Positions 25,095 to 62,739 of a stretch of 64,000 bases of DNA are shown here, in pieces. The notes beneath the pieces are model-generated. The model was given only the letters and a program-made list of their open reading frames with translations, had not been told where the DNA came from and ran no database searches. The DNA is from a virus: the IMG/VR virus record IMGVR_UViG_3300036818_000089, positions 1 to 64,000 of that record, one strand, 5' to 3'. Numbering within the stretch: the first letter of the stretch is position 1; each line of letters begins with the position of its first letter. A program made the translations under genes and the position numbers.

Positions 25095-25337
25095 ATGCCG
25101 CGACAAGCCCCCTCACCTGCGTGTGTGTCGCACTCTGACCGCCGTGATCGGCTGCTCGGCTTCCGGGTGTCCGCGCAATGGCTGGCCCGCTGGCACCGCG
25201 AACTGGCCCGGATCAAAGCCGACACGGGTATCCATCCGCGCGCCCTGTCGCTGATCGTGCTCGACGTGCTGCGTGACTCGGTGCCAGCGATCCGGGCCCG
25301 CGCGATCAGCGAGTCCGATGTGTCCTCGCCACCCTGA
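25095..25337 (+). CDS. small hypothetical, possible ribbon-helix-helix protein
   Basis: Strand-helix-helix pattern LLGFRVS...; upstream of parA. Confidence 0.4.
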   Translation: MPRQAPSPACVSHSDRRDRLLGFRVSAQWLARWHRELARIKADTGIHPRALSLIVLDVLRDSVPAIRARAISESDVSSPP

Positions 25338-25345
25338 CATTTGCT

Positions 25346-25404
25346 GTGCACTTGTGCACAAGTGCACCTGTTGTGTCCGCCCGTGTACTTGTGCACAAGT
25401 ACAC
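25346..25404. promoter_or_regulatory. Two perfect 22-bp palindromes upstream of parA (parS/operator candidate)
   Basis: GTGCACTTGTGCACAAGTGCAC (25346-25367) and GTGTACTTGTGCACAAGTACAC (25383-25404). Confidence 0.8.
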
Positions 25405-25425
25405 ATAGATGGGAGACCACCGCCC

Positions 25426-26265
25426 ATGGCACGCAGATACGCGTTCTGCAACAACAAGGGCGGTGTCGGGAAATCCACCGAGGTCACCGACACCGCCGCC
25501 GCGCTCGCCATGCGAGACCGCAACGTCCTCGTCGTCGACTTCGACCCACAAGCCGACGCCAGCCGCCGCATGGGATTCGAGGTCAACACTGACGAGGACT
25601 GCGACACCATCGCCGACGTCATCCGCGAAGTGCACTCCAGTCGCGGCGGCGCCGTGAAAGAAGGTCTAGCGGCGAAGGTCATCCAGCAATGCCGCTGGCA
25701 GTTGCCCTACGCGCCGCGGATCCACTTCATTCCCTCCCGGTTCGACCTGGAAGACAGCGCCGCCGACACCAGCAGCGCGAATTCGTTCTTCCGGCTCGCC
25801 GACGCGCTCAAGGGCGTCGACGACCAGTACGACTACTGCCTGATCGACCTGCCGCCGTCGCTCGGCCCGCTCGCGCAGATGGGTTGGGCAGCGTGCGGAG
25901 ACCGCCAGGACGGGTTGATCGTCGTCACCCAGCCCACGTTCCCCGCGATCCGCGGTGCACGCCGCACCGTCGAACGGGTCTACGCCCGACGTTCCCGGCT
26001 GGACGTGCCCGACCTCGACGTCGTCGGCGCGGTCATCAACATGACCCGAAACACCCGCCACCACGCCCAACGCATCGCCGAGATCCGCAGCCTGTTCGGT
26101 GATCGGGTGTGGGTCGAGCAGCCGATGCGCACCGCGTTCTCCGAGCAGGACGACAAGAGCCTGCCCATCACCGCATTGCCGCCTGGCTACCCGGACCGGG
26201 AGGCCCTGTCTCGGATACCGGCGATCGTCGCCGACAAACTGATCGAGCGTGGAGAGGCAGCATGA
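25426..26265 (+). CDS. parA: ParA partition ATPase (no N-terminal HTH; type Ib-like)
   Basis: NNKGGVGKST, VLVVDFDPQAD, LIDLPPSLG. Confidence 0.93.
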   Translation: MARRYAFCNNKGGVGKSTEVTDTAAALAMRDRNVLVVDFDPQADASRRMGFEVNTDEDCDTIADVIREVHSSRGGAVKEGLAAKVIQQCRWQLPYAPRIHFIPSRFDLEDSAADTSSANSFFRLADALKGVDDQYDYCLIDLPPSLGPLAQMGWAACGDRQDGLIVVTQPTFPAIRGARRTVERVYARRSRLDVPDLDVVGAVINMTRNTRHHAQRIAEIRSLFGDRVWVEQPMRTAFSEQDDKSLPITALPPGYPDREALSRIPAIVADKLIERGEAA

Positions 26266-26672
26266 CCAGCGAGGGAATCACCCCAGAGATCCGGCCACTG
26301 CCCGAACCGCCGTCCAGCACGGCGCCCCCGAGCCGCCCGAGCCGTAGTCAGCGCATGGCCGGCGAGTCACGGGACCAGCCAGCGGCGCCCCCAGTCCGCG
26401 GCGCGCTGGTGCCTCCCGAACTGGACCTGGTCGACCCGGACGCAGGCAACGCCACGGACACGGTGACGCTGCGGATGCGCAAGCAGCACTGCGACTACCT
26501 GGGTGGTCTACGTGAGGCCATCTCGATCCGATATGGGGTGTCGAAACGGGTCATCGACGAAGCGGTGGTGGTGCTGCTGCGTCAGCACAGAGGTGACCTG
26601 ATCGAACTGGTGTCGCCGATGTCGAAGCCAGACAAGGTGGTCGACGTGGACCGGTTCCTCGGCGACCAGTAG
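26262..26672 (+). CDS. small ParA partner / centromere-binding protein (ParG/RHH-like)
   Basis: ATGA-coupled to parA; disordered N-terminus then TVTLRM-helix-helix. Confidence 0.6.
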   Translation: MTSEGITPEIRPLPEPPSSTAPPSRPSRSQRMAGESRDQPAAPPVRGALVPPELDLVDPDAGNATDTVTLRMRKQHCDYLGGLREAISIRYGVSKRVIDEAVVVLLRQHRGDLIELVSPMSKPDKVVDVDRFLGDQ

Positions 26673-26708
26673 GCGTCGACGCGATTTACGCCGTAAATCG
26701 GTGGGGGG

Positions 26709-27269
26709 TCAGGTGCAGAGGTAGGCGTGCATCGCGTGGACCACCTTCGGCGCCAGACCGGAACGGACCTGCGTTGAGTTGCGTGTCTCCCTGGCCTGTA
26801 GCAACGCGAGGGCGACGTACGCGCGTTCGATAAGGGTCAGATCGCGGATCCGCAGGCGGCCAGCGAGTCGGGCCCGCACTCGCTGGGCCATCCACGGGTC
26901 CGGTCGGCGGTGACACAGCACGTGCTGGACAGCGATCGACGTCGCCGGATCCATCACCGGGTTCGCCCACGGGTCGTCGATCGGCAGGTCCGTCCAGGCT
27001 GCCGCTGTCACCCACCGGTGGCGGATCACCCGCGCCTCGTCCGCGGGCGACAAGGGAAGCGAATGGCCGCACAGACCTAGGAACAGTTCCTCAACCACGC
27101 GGGCGGCTGCGACGGTGACCGGGCGACCGCAATGCAGCATCCGGTCGAGGTGGAACTGCGGGACCCCTGCCGCATAGAGCGCCTGCAGTCGGCGCGCCGA
27201 ACCGAGCGACGGGACCGCCCGGTTGGCGCATTGGAAGTGGCGGCGGCGCTGGTCGAGGATGGCTGCCAT
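26709..27269 (-). CDS. hypothetical protein, related to 21628-22707
   Basis: GSARRLQAL and W.D..IDDP motifs shared. Confidence 0.6.
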   Translation of the reverse strand: MAAILDQRRRHFQCANRAVPSLGSARRLQALYAAGVPQFHLDRMLHCGRPVTVAAARVVEELFLGLCGHSLPLSPADEARVIRHRWVTAAAWTDLPIDDPWANPVMDPATSIAVQHVLCHRRPDPWMAQRVRARLAGRLRIRDLTLIERAYVALALLQARETRNSTQVRSGLAPKVVHAMHAYLCT

Positions 27270-27330
27270 CGCGCTACCTACCCGTTCCGTCCACGAACCC
27301 ACTGGTCATCGAACAGATCATCGACCTCCA

Positions 27331-27552
27331 TCACACACCGATCATGGGACTCATGTGACTGATACCAGTGATGACGACCATGACCACGACGACGAGGCCC
27401 ACGACGACAAGTACCACCGGGAACCGGTTGCGGGGGCCGTGGTCAGCTCTGCTGGACCACTGGTCGTCGTCCAGGATGTCCGGGTCCGGGTAGGCGATCG
27501 TGTCGTCGTCGTCCGGGTGGTCGGCTGCTTCTCCGATCCGGTTCCGTGGCAC
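27331..27552 (-). CDS. small membrane protein
   Basis: Acidic N-terminus, C-terminal TM helix. Confidence 0.5.
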   Translation of the reverse strand: MPRNRIGEAADHPDDDDTIAYPDPDILDDDQWSSRADHGPRNRFPVVLVVVGLVVVVMVVITGISHMSPMIGV

Positions 27553-27589
27553 CGCTGGGGTGCCCCACTCCTCATCACCCGACCGTCTG

Positions 27590-30115
27590 CTACGCAATCC
27601 CATCCGTAAGCCCTCTTTCGGTGTTGTTTTGTTGCACGCGGGAAGAACCCTCCCCGTTTAGTCCTCGCCTGGCGTTGTGCTCATCGGTCCCATCCATGTC
27701 AGACAGTGCGACGTACCGCTGGCCCGCCTCGCCGTCGACGCGGCCCGCCCGGATCTCGACCTGCCCATCCCGCAGCGCCTGTGCCAGTTGCTGCGCCGAC
27801 CAGCCGCCGTACACGCTCGGCCACTGGGTGCGCAGCCGAGTCAGCACGTCACTGGACTTGACCTTCGGCCGGCCGCCCATCACCGTGATCACGTCCTCAC
27901 GGAATCCGTCCGATGAGTTGCCGCCATGGCCGCCGTACAGTTCCACCGCGCGGCGGGTGACCCGATGCAGGTCCTCGACCGACAGGTAGAAGAACCGCAG
28001 TAGCTCGGGGGTGGCGGTGAACCCTCGCGTCATCGCCGTCCCGACGTCACCCAGGCTCAGGTCGGTTTTCGGACGCAACCCGACGGCAGTCACCCCGGCG
28101 CGGTGGGATCCGGTGCCCAGGGTGGCGTCGTTGCTGGTGTGGTCACCGGTCGAGAAGCACGCCTTGTTCGAGGCGACGGACACCAGTTGCCGCGGGAGAC
28201 CGCCGTTGGTCGGCTCCGGCGTGGCCATGATGATGGTGTCGCCGTACTTACGGGCCGCGCTCATTAGCAGCACGATCCGTTCCTCGGCCAACTTGCCGTA
28301 CTTGGCGTGCAGGAACAGCGCCTGGCACTCGTCGATCACCAGGACCTGCGGGCGCAGCCTGCTGTCGACCTCGGCGATCTCGCGGGTCGCGGCCCGTTCA
28401 CCGCCGTGTTCCTTCAGCGCACGGCCGCGCTCTTCGAGATTGTCGTACATGGTCTGGATTCGGTCCATGCACGCACGGACGGTGTCCTCGCCGATCCCGG
28501 TTTTCAGGGTGGCCAGGCGGGGTTCTGCGGGGTCGTAATCGGCGTTGGTGGCCATGACGAAGACGTGGATGTCGACTAGCGGGTCGAGCATCGCGCCCGC
28601 GAGCAGGGCGAGGATCAGCGTCGATTTGCCACCGCCCATGATCCCGCTGAGCACGTAGTTGGCCTCGAACAGGCGAGCGTTGATCACGTTCGCGCGGATG
28701 CCGATACCGACCGGGACACCCCGGAAATAATCGGTGACGACAGTGTTGAGGTTAGCCAATAGCGGATAGGGGGGGACGGGACGGTTGAGACTGCCGCGGT
28801 CGGCGATCCACAGGTCCAGGACACTGGCCTTGTCGTCGGGTTCGGTAGCCCACACCTCCTGCTGCTTGCGTTCCAGGTTGTGGGCCAGCACGACCCGCTT
28901 GCCGACGATCATTTCGACGGGCACACCGCGTGGTAGGCGGATCTGGCAACGCCATCCGTCGCCGTCGCGGGTCGGGCGCATCGGCCACAGGCCACGGCGG
29001 GCGTATTCCTGGTCGCCCGGGTCGAGGTCCTCGGCTGGCCAGCCCTCCCGGTCCTCCCGGCCCTCCCGGGCGGCGGCGAGTTTGGGGATTCCCAGTTCCT
29101 GCAGGGAACCGATGATGGCCGCCTCGTCCGGGTCGAGGCCGGGGCGTGGCAGCAGACGGCGTCGGGGCTGCCGGGGCGCGGGAACAATCGCGGGGTCGGC
29201 CGGGGTATACGTGTCGTCGTGGTCGACACCCTCGGCGTCGACCACGGTGGCCGTGTCGTGGGGGTCCTGGTCCTCGTAGCCGGTGTCGGTGTAGTAGGTC
29301 AGGCCCTCCTCGTTGGGGCCGGTGATCGCGGGCGGCGAGGTGGTCCAGCGGCGGGTGGCGTCCGCCCTCGCCGCGGGGGCGTTGTCGTCGCTGTTCTCCT
29401 GGGCCTGCCACGCGGGGGTGGTGGCGCGGGCACGGCCCACAGCCCACAACACGATCCACACCGCCACCACGGCGACCAGCAGGAACGACGCCCACACCAG
29501 CGTGACGATCCGCACCAGGTCGGCGATGAACGCGAACACCGCGGTGAAGGGGGCGAAGATCGCGGCGGCGTCGCGGGACATGACCGACAGGGCGACCCCA
29601 ACAACCAGCAGGACCCCGGCCACGCAGCCGATGCCCAGGCCGAACGCCTTGGTCCACGCCCACGGCATGGTGGACCACCACTCGACGCGGTGGCGGTGCC
29701 GCTGCTCCCGGGCATCTTTGGCGCGGGATTCCCACTCCAGCAGGGCTTTGTTGTCGCCGCACTGTTCGGCGCGGCGTTGCATCCGCTCGTAGCGGGCGCC
29801 GCTGCGGGAGTCCCACACGCGTTGTGCCAGCACCATGGCGCCAGCGATGGGGTAGCCGATCGCGTGGCGGGCGGCGGCACCGAGGATGGCGCGGGTGCGG
29901 TGGTGGGTGGCGACGGTGCGGGTGAGACGGCCCAGGGCGGCGGCGTCGGTGACGTAGCCGTCGAGGCGGGCGCCGCGCTGGCCACGCTGGGATTCCAGTT
30001 GCGTGTAGAGCGCGACCGCGGCGGGGTCGGGCGCCGCGTCGGGGCCGATGTGGGGCAGGTGGTGCACGCTGGCCAACTCGTCTGGCCGGCCGCAGTCGGG
30101 TGGGGTTGGCATCAC
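27590..30115 (-). CDS. traB: FtsK/SpoIIIE-like conjugative DNA translocase (actinomycete TraB/TraSA type)
   Basis: Two TM segments, Walker A GIMGGGKS, Walker B VLVIDECQ, C-terminal wHTH-like region; 841 aa. Confidence 0.85.
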   Translation of the reverse strand: MMPTPPDCGRPDELASVHHLPHIGPDAAPDPAAVALYTQLESQRGQRGARLDGYVTDAAALGRLTRTVATHHRTRAILGAAARHAIGYPIAGAMVLAQRVWDSRSGARYERMQRRAEQCGDNKALLEWESRAKDAREQRHRHRVEWWSTMPWAWTKAFGLGIGCVAGVLLVVGVALSVMSRDAAAIFAPFTAVFAFIADLVRIVTLVWASFLLVAVVAVWIVLWAVGRARATTPAWQAQENSDDNAPAARADATRRWTTSPPAITGPNEEGLTYYTDTGYEDQDPHDTATVVDAEGVDHDDTYTPADPAIVPAPRQPRRRLLPRPGLDPDEAAIIGSLQELGIPKLAAAREGREDREGWPAEDLDPGDQEYARRGLWPMRPTRDGDGWRCQIRLPRGVPVEMIVGKRVVLAHNLERKQQEVWATEPDDKASVLDLWIADRGSLNRPVPPYPLLANLNTVVTDYFRGVPVGIGIRANVINARLFEANYVLSGIMGGGKSTLILALLAGAMLDPLVDIHVFVMATNADYDPAEPRLATLKTGIGEDTVRACMDRIQTMYDNLEERGRALKEHGGERAATREIAEVDSRLRPQVLVIDECQALFLHAKYGKLAEERIVLLMSAARKYGDTIIMATPEPTNGGLPRQLVSVASNKACFSTGDHTSNDATLGTGSHRAGVTAVGLRPKTDLSLGDVGTAMTRGFTATPELLRFFYLSVEDLHRVTRRAVELYGGHGGNSSDGFREDVITVMGGRPKVKSSDVLTRLRTQWPSVYGGWSAQQLAQALRDGQVEIRAGRVDGEAGQRYVALSDMDGTDEHNARRGLNGEGSSRVQQNNTERGLTDGIA

Positions 30116-30174
30116 GGTGGTCCAATCACCTGCGAAGGGATCACCCCCTTCCCGGGGGTTCGGGTTGGGCTGGG

Positions 30175-30207
30175 CGCCGGGGGAGCCCCGCCGGGGCTCC
30201 CCCGGCG
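30175..30207 (-). terminator. GC-rich hairpin immediately upstream of traB
   Basis: CGCCGGGGGAGCCCC-gcc-GGGGCTCCCCCGGCG. Confidence 0.6.
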
Positions 30208-30210
30208 GGG

Positions 30211-30378
30211 TCAGTCCTGCGCCGGGCCGGGCACGGCGGGGGCGCTGAACACGTGGAAGTGGATGCCCTGCGTCGGCAGGTACTGGCCGATGATGTACGC
30301 GACCACGAACAGCACGCCAACCGCGACGATCAGGGACGGCATGGACATTTTCGTGCCCTTGGGCCTGGTTCCAGCCAT
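30211..30378 (-). CDS. 55-aa membrane peptide
   Basis: GAGGT RBS; single TM helix; below ORF-track cutoff. Confidence 0.55.
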   Translation of the reverse strand: MAGTRPKGTKMSMPSLIVAVGVLFVVAYIIGQYLPTQGIHFHVFSAPAVPGPAQD

Positions 30379-30435
30379 GGTGTTTACCTCGTTCTCTGTT
30401 GTCGTTGCTGGGGTTGCGCTGCGGGTATTGGGGGG

Positions 30436-30645
30436 TCAGATCCGCTGCGAGTGGACGGCGGCGGGGGCGGCCTCGATGTGGTAGGCGTGCTGCATGTTCA
30501 CGCCGAACGCGATGGACATCATCACGACGAGTACCGCGCCAGCGGCCCAGAGGGTCACGGCCAGTGGCGTGTTCTTCGGGCGCTTCGTCGTCGACGACCT
30601 AGTGGTGGACCGGGTGGGGACGCTGCTACCGGGCATGTTTTCCAT
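30436..30645 (-). CDS. small membrane protein
   Basis: Basic N-terminus plus TM helix. Confidence 0.6.
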   Translation of the reverse strand: MENMPGSSVPTRSTTRSSTTKRPKNTPLAVTLWAAGAVLVVMMSIAFGVNMQHAYHIEAAPAAVHSQRI

Positions 30646-30691
30646 GATTGGCTTCCTGCCTTTTCTCTGGACGGTTTCAGGGTTCCTGATT

Positions 30692-30874
30692 TCAGGAGGT
30701 CACTTTGAATTCTTGCTTGGCGTGGATGTAGCCGCCGTCGCCGTTGCTGAACTCCACGAAGACTCCGTTGTCATCTGTGAAGGCCTCGTCCACGGTGGCC
30801 GTTCGGCCGTTGCTGAACTTCACCTCGTCACCGGCGTGCAGTTCGCTGGCTTTCACCACGGCATATTTGGCCAT
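30692..30874 (-). CDS. 60-aa small beta-rich protein
   Basis: AAAGGA RBS; MAKYAVVKASEL..GD. Confidence 0.65.
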   Translation of the reverse strand: MAKYAVVKASELHAGDEVKFSNGRTATVDEAFTDDNGVFVEFSNGDGGYIHAKQEFKVTS

Positions 30875-30894
30875 GTCGGTAATTCCTTTCGTTG

Positions 30895-31482
30895 TCAGGC
30901 TTCTGCGCGGTAGCGGGCGGCGCGGGCCTCGACCTCGCGCACGTACCAGCCAGCGTGGTTGTAGGCGAAGTACGCCCGGTAGGGGCTGTGGGAGAACCCG
31001 TCGTCGCACAACTTGTGGGCGGCGGCGTGGATGGCGTCGTGGAGGCTGTAGATGTTCGGGCCGATGTCGGGGTGGCGGTAGCGGACTGCGGCGAACGTGC
31101 CGGGCTCGAACTGCATCGGGCCGCGGGCGCCCGCGTAGTTCGCGCCGGAGTGCACCCCGGGCAGGTGGGACTGGCCGTGGTTGGTTTCCACCGCGCCGAT
31201 CCCGGCGAGGGCGGCCCAGTCCAGGCCTGGGCAAGTGCGCCCGTATTCGCGGTAGTAGGCCAGCGCTGTCGCGGGGATGCCGGGCATCGACGACGGGCCC
31301 AACCCGGACGTTCGGTGTGTGGCGGGCCCGGCACCCAGGGCGGGACCGATGGCGTCCTCGGTGATTCCGCTGTTGCCGAGCGCCTCGACCACGGCGGGCC
31401 GGTAGGTGATGTACGCGCCCAGCGCGGCCATCACGACCGTGCCGCACACGGCGGCGCAGGCCACGTTGACGATGCGAGACAA
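30895..31482 (-). CDS. membrane-anchored lytic transglycosylase (SLT-like)
   Basis: W..LAGIG.VET.HG, GARGPMQF.P.TF, AYNHA..YV. Confidence 0.88.
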   Translation of the reverse strand: MSRIVNVACAAVCGTVVMAALGAYITYRPAVVEALGNSGITEDAIGPALGAGPATHRTSGLGPSSMPGIPATALAYYREYGRTCPGLDWAALAGIGAVETNHGQSHLPGVHSGANYAGARGPMQFEPGTFAAVRYRHPDIGPNIYSLHDAIHAAAHKLCDDGFSHSPYRAYFAYNHAGWYVREVEARAARYRAEA

Positions 31483-31584
31483 TGTGGTTCTCCCGGTTCC
31501 CGAGGTGTTGTGGGTGCTGGGTGGGTCCGGTCGGTGGCGGGGTGCAACTTGGCAAGGTGGCGCCGCCCCGGCCGGACGTTTGTG

Positions 31585-31890
31585 TCAGGCGGTGACCTGG
31601 CTGGCCTCCTCGCCTTCGGTGGGCTGCTCGACGACGGGCCGGTCGGTGGTGCCGGCGGTGATGCACAGCGCGCGGCGCGCGGCGCGGCGGCGGCGGGCCA
31701 GCCGCCATTCGTGCAGCGCCCACCACGCGGCGACCAGGATCGCCACGAAGGTGAAGACCGGGGAGACCGTGACGCCTAGGACCGCGGGGACTGTGACGCC
31801 AGCCAGTTCGATCAGGTGGTAGCCGACCCACTCGACGACACCGTTGGTGTCGCGTTGGGTCGGGTTGATGGTGTCAGGCGGCGTAGGCAT
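31585..31890 (-). CDS. 2-TM transfer-module membrane protein
   Basis: EWVGYHLIELAGV..PA pattern recalled from actinomycete conjugative elements. Confidence 0.6.
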   Translation of the reverse strand: MPTPPDTINPTQRDTNGVVEWVGYHLIELAGVTVPAVLGVTVSPVFTFVAILVAAWWALHEWRLARRRRAARRALCITAGTTDRPVVEQPTEGEEASQVTA

Positions 31891-32101
31891 GGACGCGGTC
31901 CTCCTGTCGAACGGGTGCGGCGATGAATTCGGGTGCAGTGGCGTAGGTATTGACGCGACGCATCGAGGCCTCGATGACGCGGACCGCAAGCAGTAGCGGC
32001 GCCCGGATCAGGTGCAGCGCGAGGAACAGCAGCAGCGTCCCGGCGAACCGCGCCATGGCTGGCATGCCTTGGCTGTTGAGGATGTCGAACAGGTTCACCA
32101 T
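31874..32101 (-). CDS. small transfer-module membrane protein
   Basis: RF..TLLLFLALHL.R.PL pattern. Confidence 0.6.
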   Translation of the reverse strand: MVNLFDILNSQGMPAMARFAGTLLLFLALHLIRAPLLLAVRVIEASMRRVNTYATAPEFIAAPVRQEDRVHAYAA

Positions 32102-32268
32102 CGGTGTCGTTTCGTGGTCGATAGGCGCTGTCGCTGTATTCTGGGTGGGCACGTCGGGCCTCCTAGAAGGGCTCGGTGTTGGAGGCCCTGCCGGGTGTAA
32201 GCCGGTGGGGCCTCGTTCTGTGTCGGGTACGTGCGGGATCGTTACGTGCGACCAGGGGAAACGGGTGG

Positions 32269-32403: not shown

Positions 32404-32451
32404 GTCCGCTCCTATCTGCAGCAGACGTGTTTTGGCTGGTCAGCGTAGTAA

Positions 32452-32769: not shown

Positions 32770-33044
32770 GACACCGCCCAGGCGCCGTCGGTGGCGCTAC
32801 TAGCGCTTGTGGCGGGAGGCGCTACTAGCGGTGTGGCGGTGGCGCAAGTAGCGGCGCCAGTAGCGCCACCGTTTGCGGCGCCAGTAGCGGCCGGTAGCGG
32901 CGTAGCGGTAGCGCCCGGACGTAGCGCCTCAGCAGCGCTACCCCGAACCGCGTCCGCTACCCACTCGGCGACATCCTGGCCCGCCACTAGCGCGGAGATG
33001 CGCGCGACGAGATAAACGTCGCCGGACAGGTTGACGGCGGTCAT
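32766..33044 (-). CDS. Ala/Thr-rich hypothetical protein (repeat-dense DNA)
   Basis: ATGA-coupled ORF. Confidence 0.4.
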   Translation of the reverse strand: MTAVNLSGDVYLVARISALVAGQDVAEWVADAVRGSAAEALRPGATATPLPAATGAANGGATGAATCATATPLVAPPATSASSATDGAWAVS

Positions 33045-33520
33045 CGGGTGCCCTCCGTCCGCTGCTCGGACAGGTCGCCGCTCCACTCGGCGAGCTTGGC
33101 CCGCCCGAAACTGGCAGTCGCCCCAGCCGCCCTGGCCAGCGCCGCACCGGTCAGCTGGTGAACGGTGCCGTCCTTGACGGCCCGGTCGAACATGTGGCGC
33201 ATGACCGCTGTCTTGTCGCCAGCCGCTGTCTTGGCCGCTACGCCAGCGAGCGGACGGGTGCGGCGGCGGTGCTGCTGGATGCGCGCTACTGGCGCTGGCG
33301 CTACCCGCAACTGGCGCGCTACCTCGACGGGTTCGGGTAGCGCTTCCGGGGCGCTAGTAGCGGGGGCTAGTGGCGCCTGTTCGGTGGCGCCAGTGGCGCT
33401 GGTCGGCTCCCACGGGGAGCGCAGCGGTAGCGCCGCCAGTAGCGCTGCCGATCGCTGCACCGCCAGCTCGGCCAACAGGCGCTCGCGCAGTTCGGGGTCG
33501 TGCGCTACTCGCGCTACCCG
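32793..33520. repeat. Dense cluster (~20) of GTAGCG/CGCTAC hexamers
   Basis: e.g. 32884, 32894, 32902, 32908, 32921, 33284, 33299, 33317, 33337, 33427, 33439, 33503, 33512. Confidence 0.8.
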
Positions 33521-34225
33521 AAGCGCCCGCGACAGGCGGCCGGTGCGCCACAGTGCGCGGTCCGCCAGCGCCAGCCGGGCGGCGCGGGTGACTGCCCGCT
33601 CCCGGGTGCGGGTGACAGCGTCCCGGTCGTCGTCGGCCAGGCCGAGCCGGGACAACCCACGCTCCCGAAGCTCACCGGTGACGCGTGCCCACAGGCCGGT
33701 CTGGATGCCGGCGCGGCGGCGGATCTCGATACCGAGCGCCAGGTGCAGCATGACCAGGCTGAGGATCGGGCCCAGTGCTACGCGGGCGGCGCCGTCGACC
33801 GGGCCGGACAGCACCACCGCGGCGTAGCCGGACAGGCCACACAGTGCCCACGCGACCAGACGAGGTGCGCCCGGCGAACCAGGCCGGCCGGTCGCGGGGT
33901 CGAGGTGGCGGACGTTGGCGCGCATACCGACCGCGCACGCGATCAAGGCCAGTTCGACCACCGAGAACATGACCACCCGCTCGGCGCCGGTGACACCGAG
34001 CCGGTCCCCGAAGAACCGCCACGACGTGTTCAAGCTGACCGACAGGCCACCTGCGGCGCCGGCGTAGTACCACCACGGCGTGCCCTGGGGCAGTCGCCGG
34101 GCGAACCGGACAGCGAGCGTTCCGAGCGCCACGACCACCAGAAGCGCCACCAGCGCGGCCGCGACCAGCGTCGGGCTCACGGTGGATGTCCAGGCGATGG
34201 ACTGGGCTTGGTTGCCGGGCTGCAT
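33041..34225 (-). CDS. SpdB-like multi-TM spread protein
   Basis: ~5 TM helices, R..LSRLGLA....RD.....R motif, Pro/Ala linker, C-terminal HTH-like region. Confidence 0.65.
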   Translation of the reverse strand: MQPGNQAQSIAWTSTVSPTLVAAALVALLVVVALGTLAVRFARRLPQGTPWWYYAGAAGGLSVSLNTSWRFFGDRLGVTGAERVVMFSVVELALIACAVGMRANVRHLDPATGRPGSPGAPRLVAWALCGLSGYAAVVLSGPVDGAARVALGPILSLVMLHLALGIEIRRRAGIQTGLWARVTGELRERGLSRLGLADDDRDAVTRTRERAVTRAARLALADRALWRTGRLSRALRVARVAHDPELRERLLAELAVQRSAALLAALPLRSPWEPTSATGATEQAPLAPATSAPEALPEPVEVARQLRVAPAPVARIQQHRRRTRPLAGVAAKTAAGDKTAVMRHMFDRAVKDGTVHQLTGAALARAAGATASFGRAKLAEWSGDLSEQRTEGTR

Positions 34226-34260
34226 CTGTCTGCGTCCTTCGGGGGTTCGTACTGCGGTGG

Positions 34261-34449
34261 TCAGTTCGAGTGGCCGGGTTCGGTGGCGGCGTCGGCGATG
34301 CCGTCCCACGCGGCGCGGATCGCAGGCTCGTCGGCGCGCTGTTCGGCGTCGCGCAGCGCCGGGATCAGCAGCGCCAACCGGTGGCTGGTGGTGGAAGCGG
34401 GCTGGGCGCTGGTGACGGCACAGCGTCCAGCCCGGGTCTGTGCGGACAT
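34261..34449 (-). CDS. small hypothetical protein
   Basis: TGATG-coupled ORF. Confidence 0.4.
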   Translation of the reverse strand: MSAQTRAGRCAVTSAQPASTTSHRLALLIPALRDAEQRADEPAIRAAWDGIADAATEPGHSN

Positions 34450-34754
34450 CACTGCAATCCCGCCATCCGCAGAGCCAGGCGGCCCTTGTCGGTGATGGTG
34501 TTGCCGGCCATCAGTTCGTAGCGGCGCAGTTCGGCCAGCGGCTCGGCAGTCCACGGGTCGGACTGGTCGGGCTGGTACGGGGTTCGGCGGGTGGCTTTGG
34601 CTGCTGCGACGAGGACGTCCCAGTGGAACGAGTTCAGTTCCAGCACCGGGACCGCTACGACGACGAACGGGGTGCCGTTGTCCTGGACAGAGACGAGGAC
34701 GGATGCGGCAGCGGTGGGCGTGTGACGTGCTGGCCGCTGATTGGACCTGCTCAT
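34449..34754 (-). CDS. hypothetical protein
   Basis: Coupled ORF. Confidence 0.55.
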   Translation of the reverse strand: MSRSNQRPARHTPTAAASVLVSVQDNGTPFVVVAVPVLELNSFHWDVLVAAAKATRRTPYQPDQSDPWTAEPLAELRRYELMAGNTITDKGRLALRMAGLQ

Positions 34755-34942
34755 GACGCCTCGTCCAGGTCGCTGAGTGCCTCGGGTGCGGTGATCACGC
34801 GGGCGGCGTACCGCTCGCGGGCGGCGATGAGCTTCTTGCGGTTGCGGGAGCTGGGCCTCTCGCGGACCGCGAACTCGGCGTAGATGAGGACGGTCTGCGG
34901 GTCGGCGGCCTTCCGGGACCGCGCGTTGCGTCGGCTGGCCAT
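34751..34942 (-). CDS. small basic protein
   Basis: GGAGG RBS preceded by the motif. Confidence 0.6.
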   Translation of the reverse strand: MASRRNARSRKAADPQTVLIYAEFAVRERPSSRNRKKLIAARERYAARVITAPEALSDLDEAS

Positions 34943-35001
34943 TGCTGGCCTCCGTTCAGGTTTCCGGTGGTGACGGATGGGGTGGAGCGGTGAGCGGTGG
35001 G

Positions 35002-35307
35002 TCAGGTCTGTCGCTTGAGGTTGCGGCGCTGCCGTTCGGACAGGCCGCCCCAGATCCCGAACCGTTCGTCATGGGTCAGGGCGTAGGCGAGGCAGTCCGC
35101 CCGGACGTCGCAGCCCTGGCAGATGCGTTTCGCTTCGCGCGTTGAGCCGCCCTTTTCGGGGAAGAACTCCTCGGGGTCGGTTTGCGCGCACAGCGCCCGG
35201 TCCTGCCATTCCTCGACGTCGGAGGGCACGAGATGTTCGACGAAGTCGGCGAACGCCTGCGCACGGGTGGGGATGGTGTTGACGGGGGCGGCCGTGGTGA
35301 TGGTCAT
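35002..35307 (-). CDS. whiB: WhiB-family Fe-S transcription factor (WhiB/WhiB2-like)
   Basis: WQDRALCAQTDPE.FFPEKGGSTREAKRIC..C.VR..CL.YAL..DERFGIWGGLSER.RR. Confidence 0.95.
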   Translation of the reverse strand: MTITTAAPVNTIPTRAQAFADFVEHLVPSDVEEWQDRALCAQTDPEEFFPEKGGSTREAKRICQGCDVRADCLAYALTHDERFGIWGGLSERQRRNLKRQT

Positions 35308-35516
35308 TGGCGTGGCCTCCGTTGTGTGCCGTGTGGTGACGGATGGGGCTGGGGGTGCTCGTGTTGTGGTGACGGACGGGTGATCTTGTTGACTCTCACG
35401 GTTTTCAGTGAGTGGGGTCAACATCGAGATCGAACGTAGCACGCGGACGACCTCCCATCAACCCCCAGCAACACTCCACCTTGCGGAACCCCCCTCAACC
35501 TTGCATGATGTGGGGC

Positions 35517-36359
35517 ATGCCCGACATTGAGGAGGTCCAGGCCCTTGACGACCCGTGGGAGCGGATGCGTCGCGCACACGAGCAGGTCGTCTATCACCAG
35601 ACGCAGGGCGGCGAGTACGCGAGGATCCGGCGTGAAGCGATCGAGGACCTGATCGGCCGGAAGGTCAAGCAGGCCGACATCGCTCGGATGCTGGGAGTGA
35701 GCTCGTCGCGGATCAGCCGCCTGCTGTCCTCGGCCCCCAAGGTCGAGCGTGCGCTACTGGGCACCGGGCCTGTCACGATCTCCGTCGGCGGCAAGTGGGA
35801 AGCGGCCAAGGAAAAGCCTGAGGCGGTTGTGTCGCGGCCCATGATGCGGGCCTGCACGCTGCTGGGTTCCATGTGCGTCGACTACGAACTGGGGTTGGCG
35901 GCCGAGGACTACGAGGTCGTCCCGCCGCCGGGTCACGTGCGTTTGAACAGGGACAACTTGATCGTGATGGGCAGCCCGCGGATCCTGCCGCTAGTCGGCC
36001 AGGTCCTCGAAAGCGACGAACACCTGGCTTTCGGGTGTGGCCCCGACGGCTGGTACCTGGTCGACCAGGACAGCGACACCCCTTACCGCTCGCCCAGCGA
36101 CCGCGGTGAGGCAGCGGACTACGGCTACATCGGACGCCTGCCCCGCCCGGACGGTCGGGGAACGTTCCTGTACCTGGCCGGCATCCACGCGATGGGCACC
36201 CTCGGAACCGTGCAGTACCTGGTCAGCAACATCGAGGACCTGTATCGCGAGGTCAAGACCCACCGATGGTCAACGATCGTCGAGACCAGATACAACCCCG
36301 CCGACGGCACGATCGTCGCTGCTGAACGCGTCACACCCATCCACGTCGTTCGACAGTAA
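35517..36359 (+). CDS. sigma70-r4-like HTH regulator with C-terminal domain (divergent from transfer operon)
   Basis: QADIARMLGVSSSRISRL; YGYIGRLPRPDG.G.FLYLAGIH. Confidence 0.75.
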   Translation: MPDIEEVQALDDPWERMRRAHEQVVYHQTQGGEYARIRREAIEDLIGRKVKQADIARMLGVSSSRISRLLSSAPKVERALLGTGPVTISVGGKWEAAKEKPEAVVSRPMMRACTLLGSMCVDYELGLAAEDYEVVPPPGHVRLNRDNLIVMGSPRILPLVGQVLESDEHLAFGCGPDGWYLVDQDSDTPYRSPSDRGEAADYGYIGRLPRPDGRGTFLYLAGIHAMGTLGTVQYLVSNIEDLYREVKTHRWSTIVETRYNPADGTIVAAERVTPIHVVRQ

Positions 36360-36374
36360 AAGGGGGCAACTTGC

Positions 36375-37325
36375 GTGTTCTTCACCGGAGTAACTGATGC
36401 CGGCCAGCCGGGCAACCCAAACGAGGACTGGGTGTCGGTGACGTCCGATCTTGTCGTGGTGCTGGACGGGGCGACCGTCCGCACCGACACCGGCTGTCTA
36501 CACGGAGTCGCCTGGTACACGAGGCACCTGGGCATGGCCATCCTCGCGGCCGCATCGGACCACACGCTTCCCCTGCGCAGCATGCTGGCCGCCGCGATCG
36601 ATCACGTCGCGGGCCTGCACCCGGAGTGCGACCTTGCCCATCCGGGGACGCCGTCCGCCGCGGTGGCCATCGTTCGGATCGATGTAGACGCGGTGCGGTA
36701 CGCCGTACTCGGCGACGCCACCGTCGTCCTCGAGTCGACCGCCGGGATCGCAACGGTCAGCGACGACCGCATCTCCCGGACCGCCGCCCTCGAGCGCGCC
36801 GCGGTCGACAAGCACCCGATCGGCTCACCCGAGAAGCGGGACGCGATGGTCGCGATGAAGCACGCCGAGCTGGCAGCCCGCAACAAACCGGACGGCTATT
36901 GGATCGCAGCCGCCGACCCTGCCGCCGCAGCGCACGCGCTCGAGGGTGAGGTGCCGCTCGAGGAGGTGCGGCGGATGGCTGTGATGACAGACGGCGCAGC
37001 TCGGATTGTCGACATGTTCCACCTGGGGGACTGGCTGCATGTCCTCGACCTGCTGGGGCACCGCGGGCCGGGTGCGCTCATCCACCGGGTGCGGAAAGCG
37101 GAAGCGGACGACCCGGACGGCGAGTTCTACCGGCGAAACAAGACCTCCGACGACGCCACCGTGGTGTACGCCGCAGCTGGTGTCTGTGCTGCGCCGCGCA
37201 GCCGCGTTGAAGCCAGGGGCGCAGCAGACATGCCTGCCCTGGAGATGTTCGAACTGGTCAACTCAGGACGGCTGTACGGATCCTGCCCGACGGTCGACGG
37301 TCGATATTTCGGAGGCAGACGATGA
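36375..37325 (+). CDS. PP2C-like phosphatase domain protein
   Basis: NEDW, VVLDGAT, LGD, MTDG, DDAT motifs. Confidence 0.8.
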   Translation: MFFTGVTDAGQPGNPNEDWVSVTSDLVVVLDGATVRTDTGCLHGVAWYTRHLGMAILAAASDHTLPLRSMLAAAIDHVAGLHPECDLAHPGTPSAAVAIVRIDVDAVRYAVLGDATVVLESTAGIATVSDDRISRTAALERAAVDKHPIGSPEKRDAMVAMKHAELAARNKPDGYWIAAADPAAAAHALEGEVPLEEVRRMAVMTDGAARIVDMFHLGDWLHVLDLLGHRGPGALIHRVRKAEADDPDGEFYRRNKTSDDATVVYAAAGVCAAPRSRVEARGAADMPALEMFELVNSGRLYGSCPTVDGRYFGGRR

Positions 37326-37489
37326 CCATCACGGAGTGGGAGTAGCTGGGCACTCGGTGACGGGTCAGGGTGCTATCCAGATCGTCCAGGACATCGCCGC
37401 CCAGATGCGCCGGCCACGGGGAGATCGGCGACACGCGGCCCAGCCTGGACCAGAGGAACCGGAGGAAGGGGAACACTCCTAGAGACACC

Positions 37490-37520
37490 TCAGGCCCGGA
37501 GATGTCATCTCCGGGCCTGA
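37490..37520 (+). terminator. 15-bp-arm perfect hairpin
   Basis: TCAGGCCCGGAGATG-T-CATCTCCGGGCCTGA. Confidence 0.6.
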
Positions 37521-37594
37521 TACGAGGCGCCGCTTAACCGGAACCACCACGAACCAGTTCAGCCAAGGCGATCAGTCAGCCCTACAAGCAACCA

Positions 37595-37651
37595 ACTAGC
37601 TCACTAACTCACTAACTCACGCGGCCTAAGGCAAGGCCCCGCAACTAACTT
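37595..37651. repeat. Tandem 8-bp ACTA(A/G)CTC repeats upstream of rep
   Basis: ACTAGCTC ACTAACTC ACTAACTC (37595-37618) plus ACTAACTT (37644). Confidence 0.7.
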
Positions 37652-37731
37652 CACGCGACATGGCGAGTGTACTGGGCGCCGCTGACGTCCACCAGCGCCC
37701 TGCCGCGTGTCGAGAGGAATGACACGCCGCT

Positions 37732-38832
37732 ATGAGCCAATCGGGCCCCCGCCGCAAGGCGAACGCCGCCTACGTCCGCAAGGACCCCGCCCAGTGGATG
37801 CACGCCGGCTGGACCAGCACACCGAACTCCATCACCCGCGACCCGGACGTCCCGCCCGATGAATGCTGGGCCTGGACGTGGTTGGCCAGCATGGACGGCG
37901 AGTTCGAGGTCAGCGGCAAGAAGCTGTGGGAGGCGAAGAAGTCCCTCGCTCGCAACCGGGCCTACGACCTGCTGAACGCGTTGGAGAAGCGCGGCCTGCT
38001 GCTGCGCACCAACGAGTACGACCCGGTCGCGCAAGTGCCCTACGTCCAGTACGACCTGCAGCCGGTGCCGGTACCGGAGGAGGAGCGGACGTGGAAGCCG
38101 ACCAAGGCGACCCCCCGGCGCCGCGGCCCGCATCCGGGTTCGAAGGCGGCCCGCGAGGCGACTTCGACCTCTGCTGAAGCTGTGGACAACCCCGAAACCG
38201 CAGGTCAGGGCGGATTCCCGGCAGGGCGGGAATCCGCAGGTCGGCAGCGGACTCCCGACAGGCCGGGAATCCCTTCTGACCAGGACTTTCCCGCCCTGCC
38301 GGGAAGTAGGGTGGATTCCCGACAGGCCGGTTCCCGACAGGCCGGGAATCCCTATAAGGAAGAGAAGAAAAGTAGAGAAGAAAATCCATCTATCGAGGCG
38401 GCGGGCCACGGGCAGGCGATGGACGGATCGACGGAATCGTCGAACGAACGGGAACCGAGCCCGGCGGCGCTGGACCTGGTCCTCGGCCTGTCGTACGGGT
38501 CGCACACGCACCCCACCCAGGGCCAGGCGCGTCAGCTGGCGCTGCTCGTCGATGCGGCCCTCGCTGGCGGGCATGATCTGCGGTCGATCCGGCGTCACGC
38601 TCAGGGCAAGGTCAACCAAGCGAGGCGCAACGCTGTCGCCTACCTCACGTGCGGCCTGAGCGCCGATCAGCTCCCAGCGGTCCGGATGGACTCCCCACAG
38701 CCCGCTAGGCCCGTCACGGCGCCGTCAGGGGCCAAACCGGCGACCCTGATCGAGTCGCAGGACGACCTTTTGGCCCGTGGACTGCCCACCCAGTTCCTGC
38801 CGACCCGGCTGAAGGCAGCTGCGGGTGCGTAG
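37732..38832 (+). CDS. replication initiator (lambda O/replisome-organizer-like)
   Basis: N-terminal winged-HTH-like region, low-complexity middle with iterons, C-terminal helical domain. Confidence 0.7.
   Translation: MSQSGPRRKANAAYVRKDPAQWMHAGWTSTPNSITRDPDVPPDECWAWTWLASMDGEFEVSGKKLWEAKKSLARNRAYDLLNALEKRGLLLRTNEYDPVAQVPYVQYDLQPVPVPEEERTWKPTKATPRRRGPHPGSKAAREATSTSAEAVDNPETAGQGGFPAGRESAGRQRTPDRPGIPSDQDFPALPGSRVDSRQAGSRQAGNPYKEEKKSREENPSIEAAGHGQAMDGSTESSNEREPSPAALDLVLGLSYGSHTHPTQGQARQLALLVDAALAGGHDLRSIRRHAQGKVNQARRNAVAYLTCGLSADQLPAVRMDSPQPARPVTAPSGAKPATLIESQDDLLARGLPTQFLPTRLKAAAGA
38215..38387. other. Putative replication origin inside rep: iterons plus purine/A-rich tract
   Basis: TTCCCG-N6-CGGGAA-type repeats at 38215, 38253, 38288, 38316, 38331, then TATAAGGAAGAGAAGAAAAGTAGAGAAGAAAA. 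Confidence 0.72.
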
Positions 38833-62736: not shown

Positions 62737-62739
62737 GCG

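What the first reader, a model, noticed from the sequence alone, without database searches (positions are those of the whole stretch)
25095..38832. Tailed phage with partition, own origin and a TraB-type conjugation module: candidate conjugative phage-plasmid
Seen: between phage early genes and a siphovirus head-tail-lysis module lie ParA plus a small partner with twin palindromes, an FtsK-like TraB, a lytic transglycosylase, SpdB-like and other small membrane proteins, a divergent HTH regulator and an iteron-bearing rep. No integrase, RepSA-type AICE replicase or att-like boundary is visible in the window. Known: TraB moves dsDNA between actinomycete hyphae without a relaxase, aided by Spd proteins; ParA systems stabilise extrachromosomal prophages. 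Inference: one element may spread by virions and by hyphal conjugation while kept as a plasmid. The CCGTCACCACA motif is shared by the transfer, early and lysis modules, which argues against a recently inserted independent AICE.
Basis: partly seen in the sequence, partly recalled or inferred. Interest (0 to 1): 0.9.

Follow-up and report, generated by a model that had tools for sequence, protein, structure and literature searches.

The report
Soil actinomycete phage carrying conjugation genes
A 75.8-kb tailed-phage genome from a soil actinomycete also carries plasmid-style partition and replication genes and a Streptomyces-type TraB DNA-transfer module. It probably can spread both as virus particles and by hyphal conjugation, as the known plasmid-phage pZL12 does, but it comes from an unrelated lineage.

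Summary
The window lies on contig C13, a 75.8-kb circularly assembling contig with a full siphovirus virion module. The flagged block (25.1-38.8 kb) holds ParA with a small partner and twin 22-bp palindromes. It also holds an FtsK-fold TraB, a lytic transglycosylase, a four-TM SpdB2-like protein, other small membrane proteins and WhiB. An initiator-like gene carries iterons inside its own coding sequence.

I add three things. A cluster of 21 GTAGCG repeats in 720 bp is a candidate clt, the cis site that TraB binds. A tyrosine recombinase lies on the contig outside the window. TraB relatives occur on 41 IMG/VR viral contigs, two of them circular phages.

The block is not a chimera and not a recent AICE insertion. 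Independent contigs bridge both borders, no att-like repeats flank it, and the phage-specific start-associated motif heads its operon.

The idea is not new: Streptomyces plasmid-phage pZL12 (2010) has the same architecture, but C13 is almost unrelated to it in sequence. Plasmid state and transfer are unproven, because the source is a low-coverage soil-metagenome MAG. The scan had already noted this element on overlapping windows.

Verdict: a new, independently assembled variant of a known kind; moderate interest.

The parts
25345..25405 (.). Twin perfect 22-bp palindromes 38 nt apart, directly upstream of parA: candidate parS/operator
   Evidence: the repeat finder I22; each arm is itself a perfect palindrome on reading the sequence
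25426..26265 (+). ParA-type partition ATPase, 279 aa, with no N-terminal HTH (type Ib-like)
   Evidence: Pfam AAA_31 1.5e-27, CbiA 1.9e-18
26262..26672 (+). 136-aa partner gene overlapping the parA stop: candidate centromere-binding protein
   Evidence: Position and coding potential; no Pfam, NCBIfam or PHROG hit
26709..27269 (-). 186-aa protein, last gene of the leftward transfer gene run; function unknown
   Evidence: phrog_1590, unknown function, 1.1e-8
27331..27552 (-). 73-aa single-TM protein downstream of traB (Spd-like position)
   Evidence: Hydrophobic segment at residues 39-73
27590..30067 (-). TraB-family FtsK-like dsDNA translocase, 825 aa: N-terminal helices/TM, disordered linker, motor domain, C-terminal winged-helix-like unit
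30211..30645 (-). Two small single-TM proteins (55 and 69 aa), Spd-like
   Evidence: Gene calls and TM scan
30895..31482 (-). Secreted or membrane-anchored lytic transglycosylase (SLT-type), 195 aa
   Evidence: Catalytic motifs ET..GPMQF..AYNHAG; atlas neighbours are SLT/SLT_2 at 0.94 with 174 shared features; 66% homologue in phage G004; no Pfam or PHROG hit
31585..32152 (-). Two small single-TM Spd-like proteins (101 and 92 aa)
   Evidence: TM scan; the 101-aa protein has a 52% homologue beside the TraB homologue on chromosomal contig C2
32795..33517 (.). Cluster of 21 GTAGCG/CGCTAC repeats (about RGTAGCGS): candidate clt, the TraB recognition site
   Evidence: 15 per kb against 0.47 per kb in the genome; the next-densest 800-bp window in 9 Mb has 5; analogous element-specific clusters beside traB in G004 and C2
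33041..34225 (-). SpdB2-like integral membrane protein, 394 aa, four N-terminal TM helices and an Arg/Ala-rich tail
   Evidence: TM scan; 50% homologue next to traB in circular phage G004; weak similarity to pZL12.73c (30% over 203 aa, E 0.004); none to pSVH1 SpdB2
34449..34942 (-). Two small genes (63 and 101 aa) at the head of the spd/tra gene run; a 1-mismatch motif copy lies 24 nt upstream
35002..35307 (-). WhiB-family transcription factor, first gene of the leftward gene run
   Evidence: Pfam Whib 2.2e-26; WhiB also sits beside SpdB2/TraB in G004
35332..35375 (-). Two exact copies of the phage-wide start-associated motif CCGTCACCACA upstream of whiB
35505..36359 (+). 284-aa protein with an N-terminal HTH, divergent from whiB: candidate regulator
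   Evidence: Weak HTH hits; phrog_1468 transcriptional repressor 1.1e-4
36375..37325 (+). 316-aa protein, weak PP2C-like; function unknown
   Evidence: PF13672 at 0.0049, below cutoff
37732..38832 (+). Candidate replication initiator, 366 aa: winged-helix N-domain, disordered linker, helical C-domain
   Evidence: AlphaFold model; best folds are primosomal DnaB/DnaD-type 5WTN (4.7e-3) and RctB domain 1; atlas neighbours HTH_36/DnaD; only 7 homologues
38194..38351 (.). Three 26-nt iteron-like repeats with inverted sub-repeats, inside the linker-coding part of the Rep candidate: candidate ori
   Evidence: the repeat finder D3, D11, I1, I7, I8; the linker peptide is conserved in homologues
41392..64000 (-). 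Lysis, tail and head modules: endolysin 43173-44177, minor tail 47936-49090, tape measure 51131-54784, major capsid 59066-60124, scaffold 60794-61609, and portal from 62740 running off the window
   Evidence: PHROGs. Large terminase (L005:7738-9384) and tyrosine recombinase (L005:1038-2168) lie on the contig beyond the window

Best explanation
C13 is the genome of a temperate siphovirus of a mycelial actinomycete, probably of Pseudonocardiaceae type. It has built plasmid and conjugation functions into its own backbone, making it a pZL12-like 'conjugative phage-plasmid' that arose independently.

Proposed working (all inferred from sequence, none shown experimentally):
1. Replication: the initiator-like protein binds the iterons within its own gene and fires replication.
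2. Partition: ParA and its small partner act on the twin palindromes to segregate the low-copy circle.
3. Transfer: the leftward gene run from whiB through spd, SLT and traB is switched on through the phage's start-associated motif. TraB hexamers dock on the GTAGCG repeat cluster (clt) and pump double-stranded phage DNA into neighbouring hyphae and across cross-walls. The SpdB2-like pore protein, the small Spd proteins and the transglycosylase assist.
4. Virion route: the virion and lysis modules give a second route of spread.
5. Recombinase: the tyrosine recombinase either resolves dimers, as Cre does for P1, or allows optional chromosomal integration.
For: - Complete virion module on the same contig: portal, large terminase, capsid, scaffold, tape measure, minor tail and endolysin.
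- Contig ends overlap by 23 bp and no chromosome-junction contigs exist.
- ParA with upstream twin palindromes.
- Initiator-like fold with in-gene iterons, paralleling pMEA300 RepAM, which binds repeats within its own gene.
- TraB has an FtsK motor by profile and by fold. It is homologous to pSVH1 TraB (E 9e-14) and to Tra proteins of small actinomycete plasmids.
- The gene order (small, small, SpdB2-like, small genes, TraB, small genes) mirrors pSVH1.
- The 21-copy repeat cluster is unique in 9 Mb. Element-specific equivalents lie next to traB in G004 and C2, matching the documented TraB-clt model of short direct repeats.
- The phage-specific motif lies 15-57 nt upstream of start codons across the early, lysis, integrase-side and transfer modules, including whiB and the next gene of the run.
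- Both block borders are bridged by independent Logan contigs at even depth.
- There are no att-like repeats around the block.
- Precedent: pZL12 has the same architecture and transfers conjugally through a major tra gene.
Against: - No experiment, and no coverage comparison with the chromosome. The source is a roughly 7-9x soil metagenome and the host link rests on binning into a MAG with 8% contamination. A circular assembly would equally arise from virion or replicating DNA.
- A catalytically plausible tyrosine recombinase is present.
- Relatives with the same virion module are integrated in chromosomes (G391, G281).
- Rep function rests on weak fold matches (best E 4.7e-3).
- The SpdB2-like protein shows no significant similarity to pSVH1 SpdB2.
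- No GntR-type TraR/Kor regulator was found in the block.
- C11 and C13 share all four contig ends, so a single 136-kb molecule is not formally excluded.
Confidence: 0.5

Rival explanations
1. C13 is an ordinary integrative temperate phage. The circle in the assembly is virion, excised or replicating DNA. The recombinase is the integrase and ParA/Rep serve lytic or transient episomal replication. The TraB/Spd/SLT/clt module spreads phage DNA between hyphal compartments, or acts as a moron, without any stable plasmid state.
For: - A tyrosine recombinase with recognisable catalytic motifs follows a small upstream gene.
- C13-like virion modules sit inside large chromosomal contigs in G391 and G281.
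- TraB-bearing phage G030 has a serine integrase.
- None of five TraB-bearing viral records tested has a ParA.
- Thoma et al. already suggested that SpdB2 homologues on actinophages may help spread phage DNA.
Against: - No attP-like match to the MAG and no tRNA on the contig.
- No junction contigs.
- A dedicated ParA, partner and palindrome locus is typical of extrachromosomal prophages.
- pZL12 and pSLE1 carry recombinases yet are plasmids.
Confidence: 0.27
2. The block is a passenger: an AICE or small conjugative plasmid that recently recombined into a phage genome and is not part of the phage's biology.
For: - The MAG holds at least five other TraB-like loci. One, on C2, shares homologues of TraB, an Spd protein, WhiB, DUF1643 and DpdA with C13.
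- The close virion-module relative G391 showed no TraB, ParA or Rep homologue in the region fetched.
- TraB phylogeny follows host taxonomy, not element type.
Against: - No integrase or RepSA/RepAM/Prim-Pol replicase in or next to the block.
- The longest repeat shared by the flanks is 11 bp, no better than shuffled sequence.
- GC and GC3 are uniform across the contig.
- The C13-specific motif precedes whiB (two copies) and the next gene of the run.
- AICE-like genes (DpdA, DUF1643) are also scattered in the early region, not confined to the block.
- TraB next to tail genes recurs in the circular phage G004.
Confidence: 0.1
3. The TraB-like ATPase has a role other than transfer in this phage, for example superinfection exclusion, defence, or handling DNA at septa during infection. 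On this view the repeat cluster is unrelated to it.
For: PHROGs files phage FtsK/SpoIIIE-like proteins under 'moron/host takeover' with no known function (phrog_1358). TraB is only 22.7% identical to characterised pSVH1 TraB. No TraR-type regulator was found.
Against: The full conjugation-type set co-occurs in pSVH1-like order: SpdB2-like, small Spd-like proteins, SLT and a repeat cluster. Equivalent clusters lie next to traB in two other elements.
Confidence: 0.08
4. Assembly artefact: C13 is chimeric, or C11 and C13 together form one 136-kb replicon.
For: C11 and C13 share the same 23-mer at all four ends and about 400 bp of 98-100% identical sequence. The data are a low-coverage metagenome.
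Against: Logan contigs from an independent assembler bridge both block borders without mismatch at even depth. C11 has its own complete virion module, so a joint molecule would carry two full sets. The motif occurs 12 times in C13 and never in C11.
Confidence: 0.05

Closest known systems
Streptomyces plasmid-phage pZL12 / phage ZL12 (GQ919031; Zhong et al. 2010) and its relative pSLE1
   Same: A circular element combining a siphovirus virion module, ParA/ParB partition, an integrase/recombinase gene and an FtsK/SpoIIIE-type tra locus with adjacent membrane-protein genes. Conjugal transfer of pZL12 needs a major tra gene plus adjacent genes. pSLE1 carries ParAB and two integrases.
   Different: Almost no sequence relationship. 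Only six weak protein matches were found (recombinase 27.5%, exonuclease 42%, WhiB, part of the tape measure, a weak terminase hit and DUF3307). C13 TraB gives no BLAST hit to pZL12.71c, which is a very long branch in the tree. C13 has a small ParA with a 136-aa partner instead of ParA/ParB, no GntR regulator, a different initiator, and a 21-copy hexamer cluster as candidate clt. C13 is untested experimentally.
pSVH1 TraB-Spd conjugation system (Streptomyces venezuelae; Reuther 2006, Vogelmann 2011, Thoma 2015)
   Same: An FtsK-like TraB with an N-terminal membrane part, a motor and a C-terminal DNA-recognition part. A four-TM SpdB2-type protein and small Spd proteins surround traB in the same order, and there is a short-repeat cis site.
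   Different: TraB is 22.7% identical. SpdB2 similarity was not detected. C13 adds a dedicated SLT transglycosylase and WhiB and lacks TraR. The repeat unit is about 6-8 bp in both orientations with 21 copies, placed within and next to the spdB2-like gene rather than at traB.
AICEs (pSAM2, SLP1, pMEA300; Ghinet et al. 2011 definition: Int + Rep + Tra)
   Same: It has a tyrosine recombinase, a Tra of the actinomycete family, Spd-like genes and an initiator with repeats inside its own gene, as RepAM has. It shares a type II hammerhead element with two AICE-like loci of the MAG.
   Different: 75.8 kb with a full virion module. Int lies about 28 kb from Tra. There is no RepSA, RepAM or Prim-Pol replicase and no att-bounded compact unit.
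Extrachromosomal prophages with par loci (P1, N15, cluster A mycobacteriophages)
   Same: A temperate tailed phage carrying a partition ATPase locus and its own origin (for the mycobacterial case).
   Different: Those phages have no conjugative DNA-transfer module. C13 has both par and a recombinase, a combination not listed for the cluster A phages in the text I read (recalled from my own knowledge; not checked here).

Membership tests
Actinomycete TraB conjugative dsDNA translocase | FtsK/SpoIIIE-type motor domain with Walker A and B motifs | tested here: met
   GGGKST and VLVIDEC motifs; profile hit to 2IUS at 2.2e-7; fold match to FtsK motors at E about 1e-12, TMt 0.58-0.64; phrog_1358 at 4.5e-13. 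Pfam PF01580 itself did not reach 0.01 for this sequence, though many family members carry it.
Actinomycete TraB conjugative dsDNA translocase | Homology to an experimentally characterised TraB | tested here: met
   pSVH1 TraB: 22.7% over 348 aa, E 7e-8 database-wide and 9e-14 pairwise. It is a distant branch in the tree.
Actinomycete TraB conjugative dsDNA translocase | N-terminal membrane association and C-terminal winged-helix clt-recognition domain | tested here: inconclusive
   TM segments at 137-216. The model shows a helix-strand-helix-helix-helix-hairpin unit at 722-787 with pLDDT 80-90. No separate fold match for that domain was obtained.
Actinomycete TraB conjugative dsDNA translocase | Cognate clt made of short direct repeats bound by TraB | tested here: inconclusive
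   21 GTAGCG repeats in 720 bp, unique in the genome, with analogous clusters in G004 and C2. Binding cannot be tested here. The repeats occur in both orientations and are more numerous than in described clt sites.
Actinomycete TraB conjugative dsDNA translocase | Adjacent spd genes including four-TM SpdB2 | tested here: inconclusive
   Architecture and gene order match. There is no significant sequence similarity to pSVH1 SpdB2 and only weak similarity to pZL12.73c.
Actinomycete TraB conjugative dsDNA translocase | GntR-type TraR/Kor repressor forming a kil-kor pair with traB | tested here: not met
   No GntR-family hit among the block proteins. Regulation may instead use WhiB, the HTH protein and the phage motif.
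Phage-plasmid (pZL12-like plasmid-phage) | Complete tailed-phage virion and lysis module | tested here: met
   Portal, large terminase, capsid, scaffold, tape measure, minor tail and endolysin.
Phage-plasmid (pZL12-like plasmid-phage) | Plasmid partition and replication functions | tested here: inconclusive
   ParA is firm. The partner and palindromes are positional inferences. The Rep assignment rests on weak fold and atlas leads plus iterons.
Phage-plasmid (pZL12-like plasmid-phage) | Stable extrachromosomal maintenance in lysogens | not testable with these tools
   There is only a circular graph node in a metagenome bin. No coverage ratio or junction reads could be obtained.
Phage-plasmid (pZL12-like plasmid-phage) | Sequence relatedness to the pZL12/pSLE1 lineage | tested here: not met
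   Only six weak protein matches, none for TraB or ParA. The portal has one distant plasmid hit.
AICE (Int + Rep + Tra, att-bounded) | Compact module with Int beside att, a RepSA/RepAM/Prim-Pol replicase and Tra | tested here: not met
   Int is about 28 kb from Tra. No AICE-type replicase was found. There are no flanking direct repeats above chance.

The most novel reading that the evidence does not exclude
TraB/Spd/clt DNA-transfer modules are a widespread, overlooked component of temperate actinomycete phages. TraB relatives occur on 41 IMG/VR contigs; 28 of the 31 records tested carry a terminase and/or capsid gene, and two are circular genomes. These modules would give phage genomes a virion-independent route through mycelia and between hyphae. 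C13 would be the fullest case, one replicon able to use virions, conjugation, plasmid partition and possibly integration, with transfer genes under phage-specific regulatory signals.
Probability: 0.35. Interest if true: 0.75.

Novelty: new variant of a known kind. Interest (0 to 1): 0.58.

Why it matters
Elements that move both as virions and by conjugation blur the line between phages and plasmids, and they change how gene flow in antibiotic-producing actinomycetes should be modelled. Only one lineage (pZL12/pSLE1) has been described and tested. C13 shows the same architecture assembled independently from unrelated modules. The IMG/VR survey suggests that TraB-type transfer genes are common cargo of actinomycete phages. 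Standard conjugation detectors, which look for relaxases and type IV secretion systems, would miss this. C13 also offers concrete, testable cis sites: the candidate clt repeats, the parS palindromes, the iterons and the start-associated motif.

Tried and rejected
- Both metagenome-contig scans for close TraB relatives found nothing. A single-protein scan of viral contigs also found nothing.
- tblastn of TraB against 50,697 GenBank phages gave no match at 1e-5.
- Only one sequencing run holds the DNA and no RNA holder is listed, so there is no expression evidence either way.
- Read laying returned Logan contigs only, so depth cannot be compared with the chromosome. The short 'joints' in its table 5 have 20-21-nt sides and were treated as noise.
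- No tRNA on the contig. The only match to the rest of the MAG near the recombinase proved to be a hammerhead element shared with AICE-like loci, not an attB.
- Pfam, NCBIfam and PHROGs gave nothing for the ParA partner, the SpdB2-like protein, the SLT candidate or the Rep candidate.
- The Foldseek search with the Rep model gave no match at E <= 0.001.
- The pZL12 paper itself (PMC2897331) is not held. Its content is cited only through papers that cite it and through the GenBank record.
- I did not test the third reading, in which the recombinase acts as an integrase on an attB missing from this 95%-complete MAG.

Full report
**Where the window lies**

The window is the minus strand of contig C13 (positions 11811-75810) of a 9.08-Mb, 287-contig assembly. 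That assembly scores 95% complete with 8% contamination. The only public run holding the DNA is labelled soil metagenome. The 'genome' is therefore a MAG, and the link between C13 and its host rests on binning plus shared genes.

C13 is 75,824 bp with a 23-bp direct overlap between its ends. The same 23-mer also ends contig C11 (60.6 kb) on both sides. The two contigs share about 400 bp at 98-100% identity there, plus patchy homology over about 7 kb. C11 has its own virion module and only 27-48% identity to C13's tail proteins. The simplest reading is two related, co-resident circular phage genomes that recently exchanged a small gene. A single 136-kb circle is not formally excluded.

In what follows, coordinates written 'w' continue the window numbering past 64000 along the contig. 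Locus L005 is C13:1-20000.

**C13 is a tailed phage**

PHROGs identifies the following:
- portal (3e-63)
- large terminase (2.5e-67)
- major capsid
- scaffold
- tape measure
- minor tail
- endolysin

The left part of the window encodes DpdA (6e-117) with a YhhQ-type transporter, glycosyltransferases, a methyltransferase and an epimerase. It also encodes a YqaJ exonuclease, an AAA_24 ATPase and DUF5131. The portal is only 30-40% identical to portals of known Streptomyces phages.

Outside the window, at L005:1038-2168, lies a 376-aa tyrosine recombinase (phrog_1 at 3.5e-17; PF00589 at 41 bits against a cutoff of 27). Its R, HxxR and Y motifs are recognisable.

**The flagged block: partition**

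ParA is firm. Its start lies 21 nt downstream of two perfect 22-bp palindromes. A 136-aa gene overlaps the ParA stop.

**The flagged block: transfer genes**

The minus strand then carries an unbroken run of genes, in order of transcription:
1. WhiB
2. two small genes
3. a 394-aa four-TM SpdB2-like protein
4. two single-TM proteins
5. a 195-aa protein with SLT motifs
6. three small genes, two of them with a TM segment
7. the 825-aa TraB
8. a 73-aa TM protein
9. a 186-aa protein

.

TraB belongs to a large actinomycete family annotated as FtsK/SpoIIIE or 'Zot domain'. The evidence for its identity:
- The family profile matches the FtsK motor.
- Its AlphaFold model matches FtsK motor structures at E about 1e-12, followed by the conjugation coupling protein TcpA.
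- It aligns with pSVH1 TraB at E 9e-14.
- Its closest plasmid homologue (44%) is on a 14.6-kb Saccharopolyspora plasmid.

The gene order mirrors pSVH1: spdB3, spd79, spdB2, orf108, traB, spd198 and onward. The SLT call rests on catalytic motifs and protein-atlas neighbours, not on a profile hit.

**The flagged block: replication**

The Rep candidate has a confident winged-helix N-domain, a disordered linker and a helical C-domain. The linker is exactly the stretch that encodes the three 26-nt repeats. That peptide is conserved among its seven metagenomic homologues, as expected if the DNA repeats are under selection. Fold matches to DnaB/DnaD-type and RctB initiators are weak. I know of in-gene iterons in lambda gene O (from my own knowledge), and pMEA300 RepAM binds repeats within its own gene.

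**A candidate clt**

I counted 21 GTAGCG/CGCTAC hexamers in 32795-33517. That is 15 per kb against 0.47 per kb in the genome, and no other 800-bp window in 9 Mb exceeds 5.

An unbiased 7-mer scan found the same kind of cluster in two other TraB-bearing elements, each with its own word:
- 22 copies of CGTGGGA in the 3' part of the SpdB2-like gene, just upstream of traB, in the circular phage G004
- 16 copies of CGGTACC about 2.4 kb from traB on chromosomal contig C2

This fits the documented model in which each TraB recognises element-specific short repeats in clt. Four other TraB-bearing viral records showed no such cluster near traB with this method.

**Is the block an integral part of the phage?**

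Several results say yes:
- The motif CCGTCACCACA (extended form CCCATCCGTCACCACA) has 12 exact copies in C13, none in C11 and 8 in the other 8.9 Mb.
- All 12 copies are intergenic and co-oriented with the downstream gene. Ten end 15-57 nt before a called start codon.
- Two copies precede whiB, and a 1-mismatch copy lies 24 nt before the next gene of the transfer run.
- Independent Logan contigs bridge 24021-27233 and 38278-39685 without mismatch at even depth.
- The flanks share no direct repeat longer than 11 bp, no better than shuffled sequence.
- GC and GC3 are uniform.

On the other side, G391 holds an integrated prophage with a C13-like virion module (terminase 56%, capsid 64%). No TraB, ParA or Rep homologue was detected in the 80 kb fetched. 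So the block is accessory within the lineage.

The MAG also has several other TraB loci. One, on C2, shares homologues of TraB (47%), an Spd protein, WhiB, DUF1643 and DpdA with C13. The module was therefore probably acquired from AICE-like elements of the same host group, but not recently.

The TraB tree agrees. It follows host taxonomy. C13 groups with three metagenomic proteins, and that group is sister to the Pseudonocardiaceae-type clade containing C2. pSVH1 and pZL12 Tra are far outliers.

**How common is this?**

An alignment-based scan of IMG/VR found 41 loci encoding TraB relatives. Of 31 records searched:
- 26 encode a large terminase, 4 of phrog_38 type and 22 of phrog_9 type
- 28 encode a terminase and/or an HK97-type capsid

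.

Two records are circular assemblies with 127-bp terminal repeats. I confirmed both as tailed phages carrying TraB:
- G004: terminase, portal, capsid, tape measure, primase-polymerase, WhiB, SpdB2-like protein and TraB
- G030: terminase, portal-protease fusion, serine integrase and TraB

Some 'provirus' records may merge a prophage with a neighbouring AICE. None of five tested records has a ParA, so the par-plus-tra combination is special to C13 among them.

C13-type portals occur in 4 of 400 other genomes of the family. One of those, G093, is an unpublished genome. The portal count, and the TraB hits listed for G093, rest partly on it.

**Comparison with what is known**

pZL12 (GQ919031) is filed as Streptomyces phage ZL12, 90.4 kb and circular. 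It carries ParA/ParB, a Tra3-like gene, an integrase/recombinase and phage structural genes. It also has an FtsK/SpoIIIE-like gene (pZL12.71c) with two large neighbours and a GntR regulator. [quoted passage not shown] PhiNon1 exists both as a circle and integrated. [quoted passage not shown]

The concept is therefore established. C13 shares almost no sequence with pZL12 and uses a different TraB clade, par type and initiator. It is an independent assembly of the same architecture. I found no paper describing TraB-family genes as a recurrent feature of actinomycete phages. The library is incomplete, so this absence is weak.

**Verdict**

The element is best read as a pZL12-like conjugative phage-plasmid of a new lineage (about 0.5). 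An integrative temperate phage that uses the module for mycelial spread is the main rival (about 0.27). Plasmid state, transfer and every DNA-protein interaction remain inferences.

Noticed in passing
L005:621-692 (+), equal to contig position w75190-75119 on the minus strand, outside the window. Also G000:C11:59909-59978 and 60220-60290; C102:85402-85471; C156:28294-28364: A type II hammerhead ribozyme motif sits just after the stop codon of a gene and before the small gene plus recombinase in C13. There are two copies in phage C11 and one in each of two AICE-like loci. Rfam missed all of these, but it scores related copies in genome G108 as Hammerhead_II (41.9 bits against a gathering score of 37). 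Across 20 copies, 99.6% of cells pair, 9 of 14 pairs change on both sides, and no shuffle of 500 reaches the covariation score. The C13 copy has a 1-nt insertion in the CUGANGA core and one C11 copy has U to C there, so those two may be inactive. The motif was found in 10 of 150 other family genomes. G108 has six copies within 3 kb.
   Followed up: yes
window 6142-7505: DpdA (PF23859, 6e-117) lies next to a YhhQ/Vut_1 preQ0-type transporter. This is a likely 7-deazaguanine DNA-modification cassette in the phage. Homologues sit on chromosomal contigs C2 and C154 beside other C13-like genes.
   Followed up: partly
window 11218-16014 and 39150-39764: A phage-borne sugar-modification set: a GT1 glycosyltransferase, a SAM methyltransferase, an NAD-dependent epimerase and a GT2 glycosyltransferase. 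The GT1 and GT2 genes are conserved (44% and 73%) in the related prophage of G391.
   Followed up: partly
G000:C2:30600-43500 (locus L082): An AICE-like cluster in the MAG holds homologues of TraB (47%), an Spd protein, DUF1643, WhiB (69%) and DpdA, plus its own 16-copy CGGTACC repeat cluster about 2.4 kb from traB.
   Followed up: partly
window 1-237, contig ends, and C11:60329-60577: The 82-aa gene spanning the C13 junction is 96% identical to one in the otherwise divergent phage C11. Several early genes are 58-100% identical in patches. This indicates recent recombination between two co-resident phages.
   Followed up: partly
window 21418-23759: A 2.3-kb stretch with weak codon bias. The only long ORF (21628-22707, 359 aa) has a marginal C-terminal HTH_23 hit. 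It may be a foreign or regulatory gene, or an immunity region.
   Followed up: no
G004 (IMGVR_UViG_3300036799_000099), 4776-8876: A circular 42.4-kb metagenomic phage carries WhiB, an SpdB2-like protein and TraB directly abutting its tail operon, with a primase-polymerase nearby. It is a compact example of a TraB-bearing phage. It was not checked for an integrase.
   Followed up: partly
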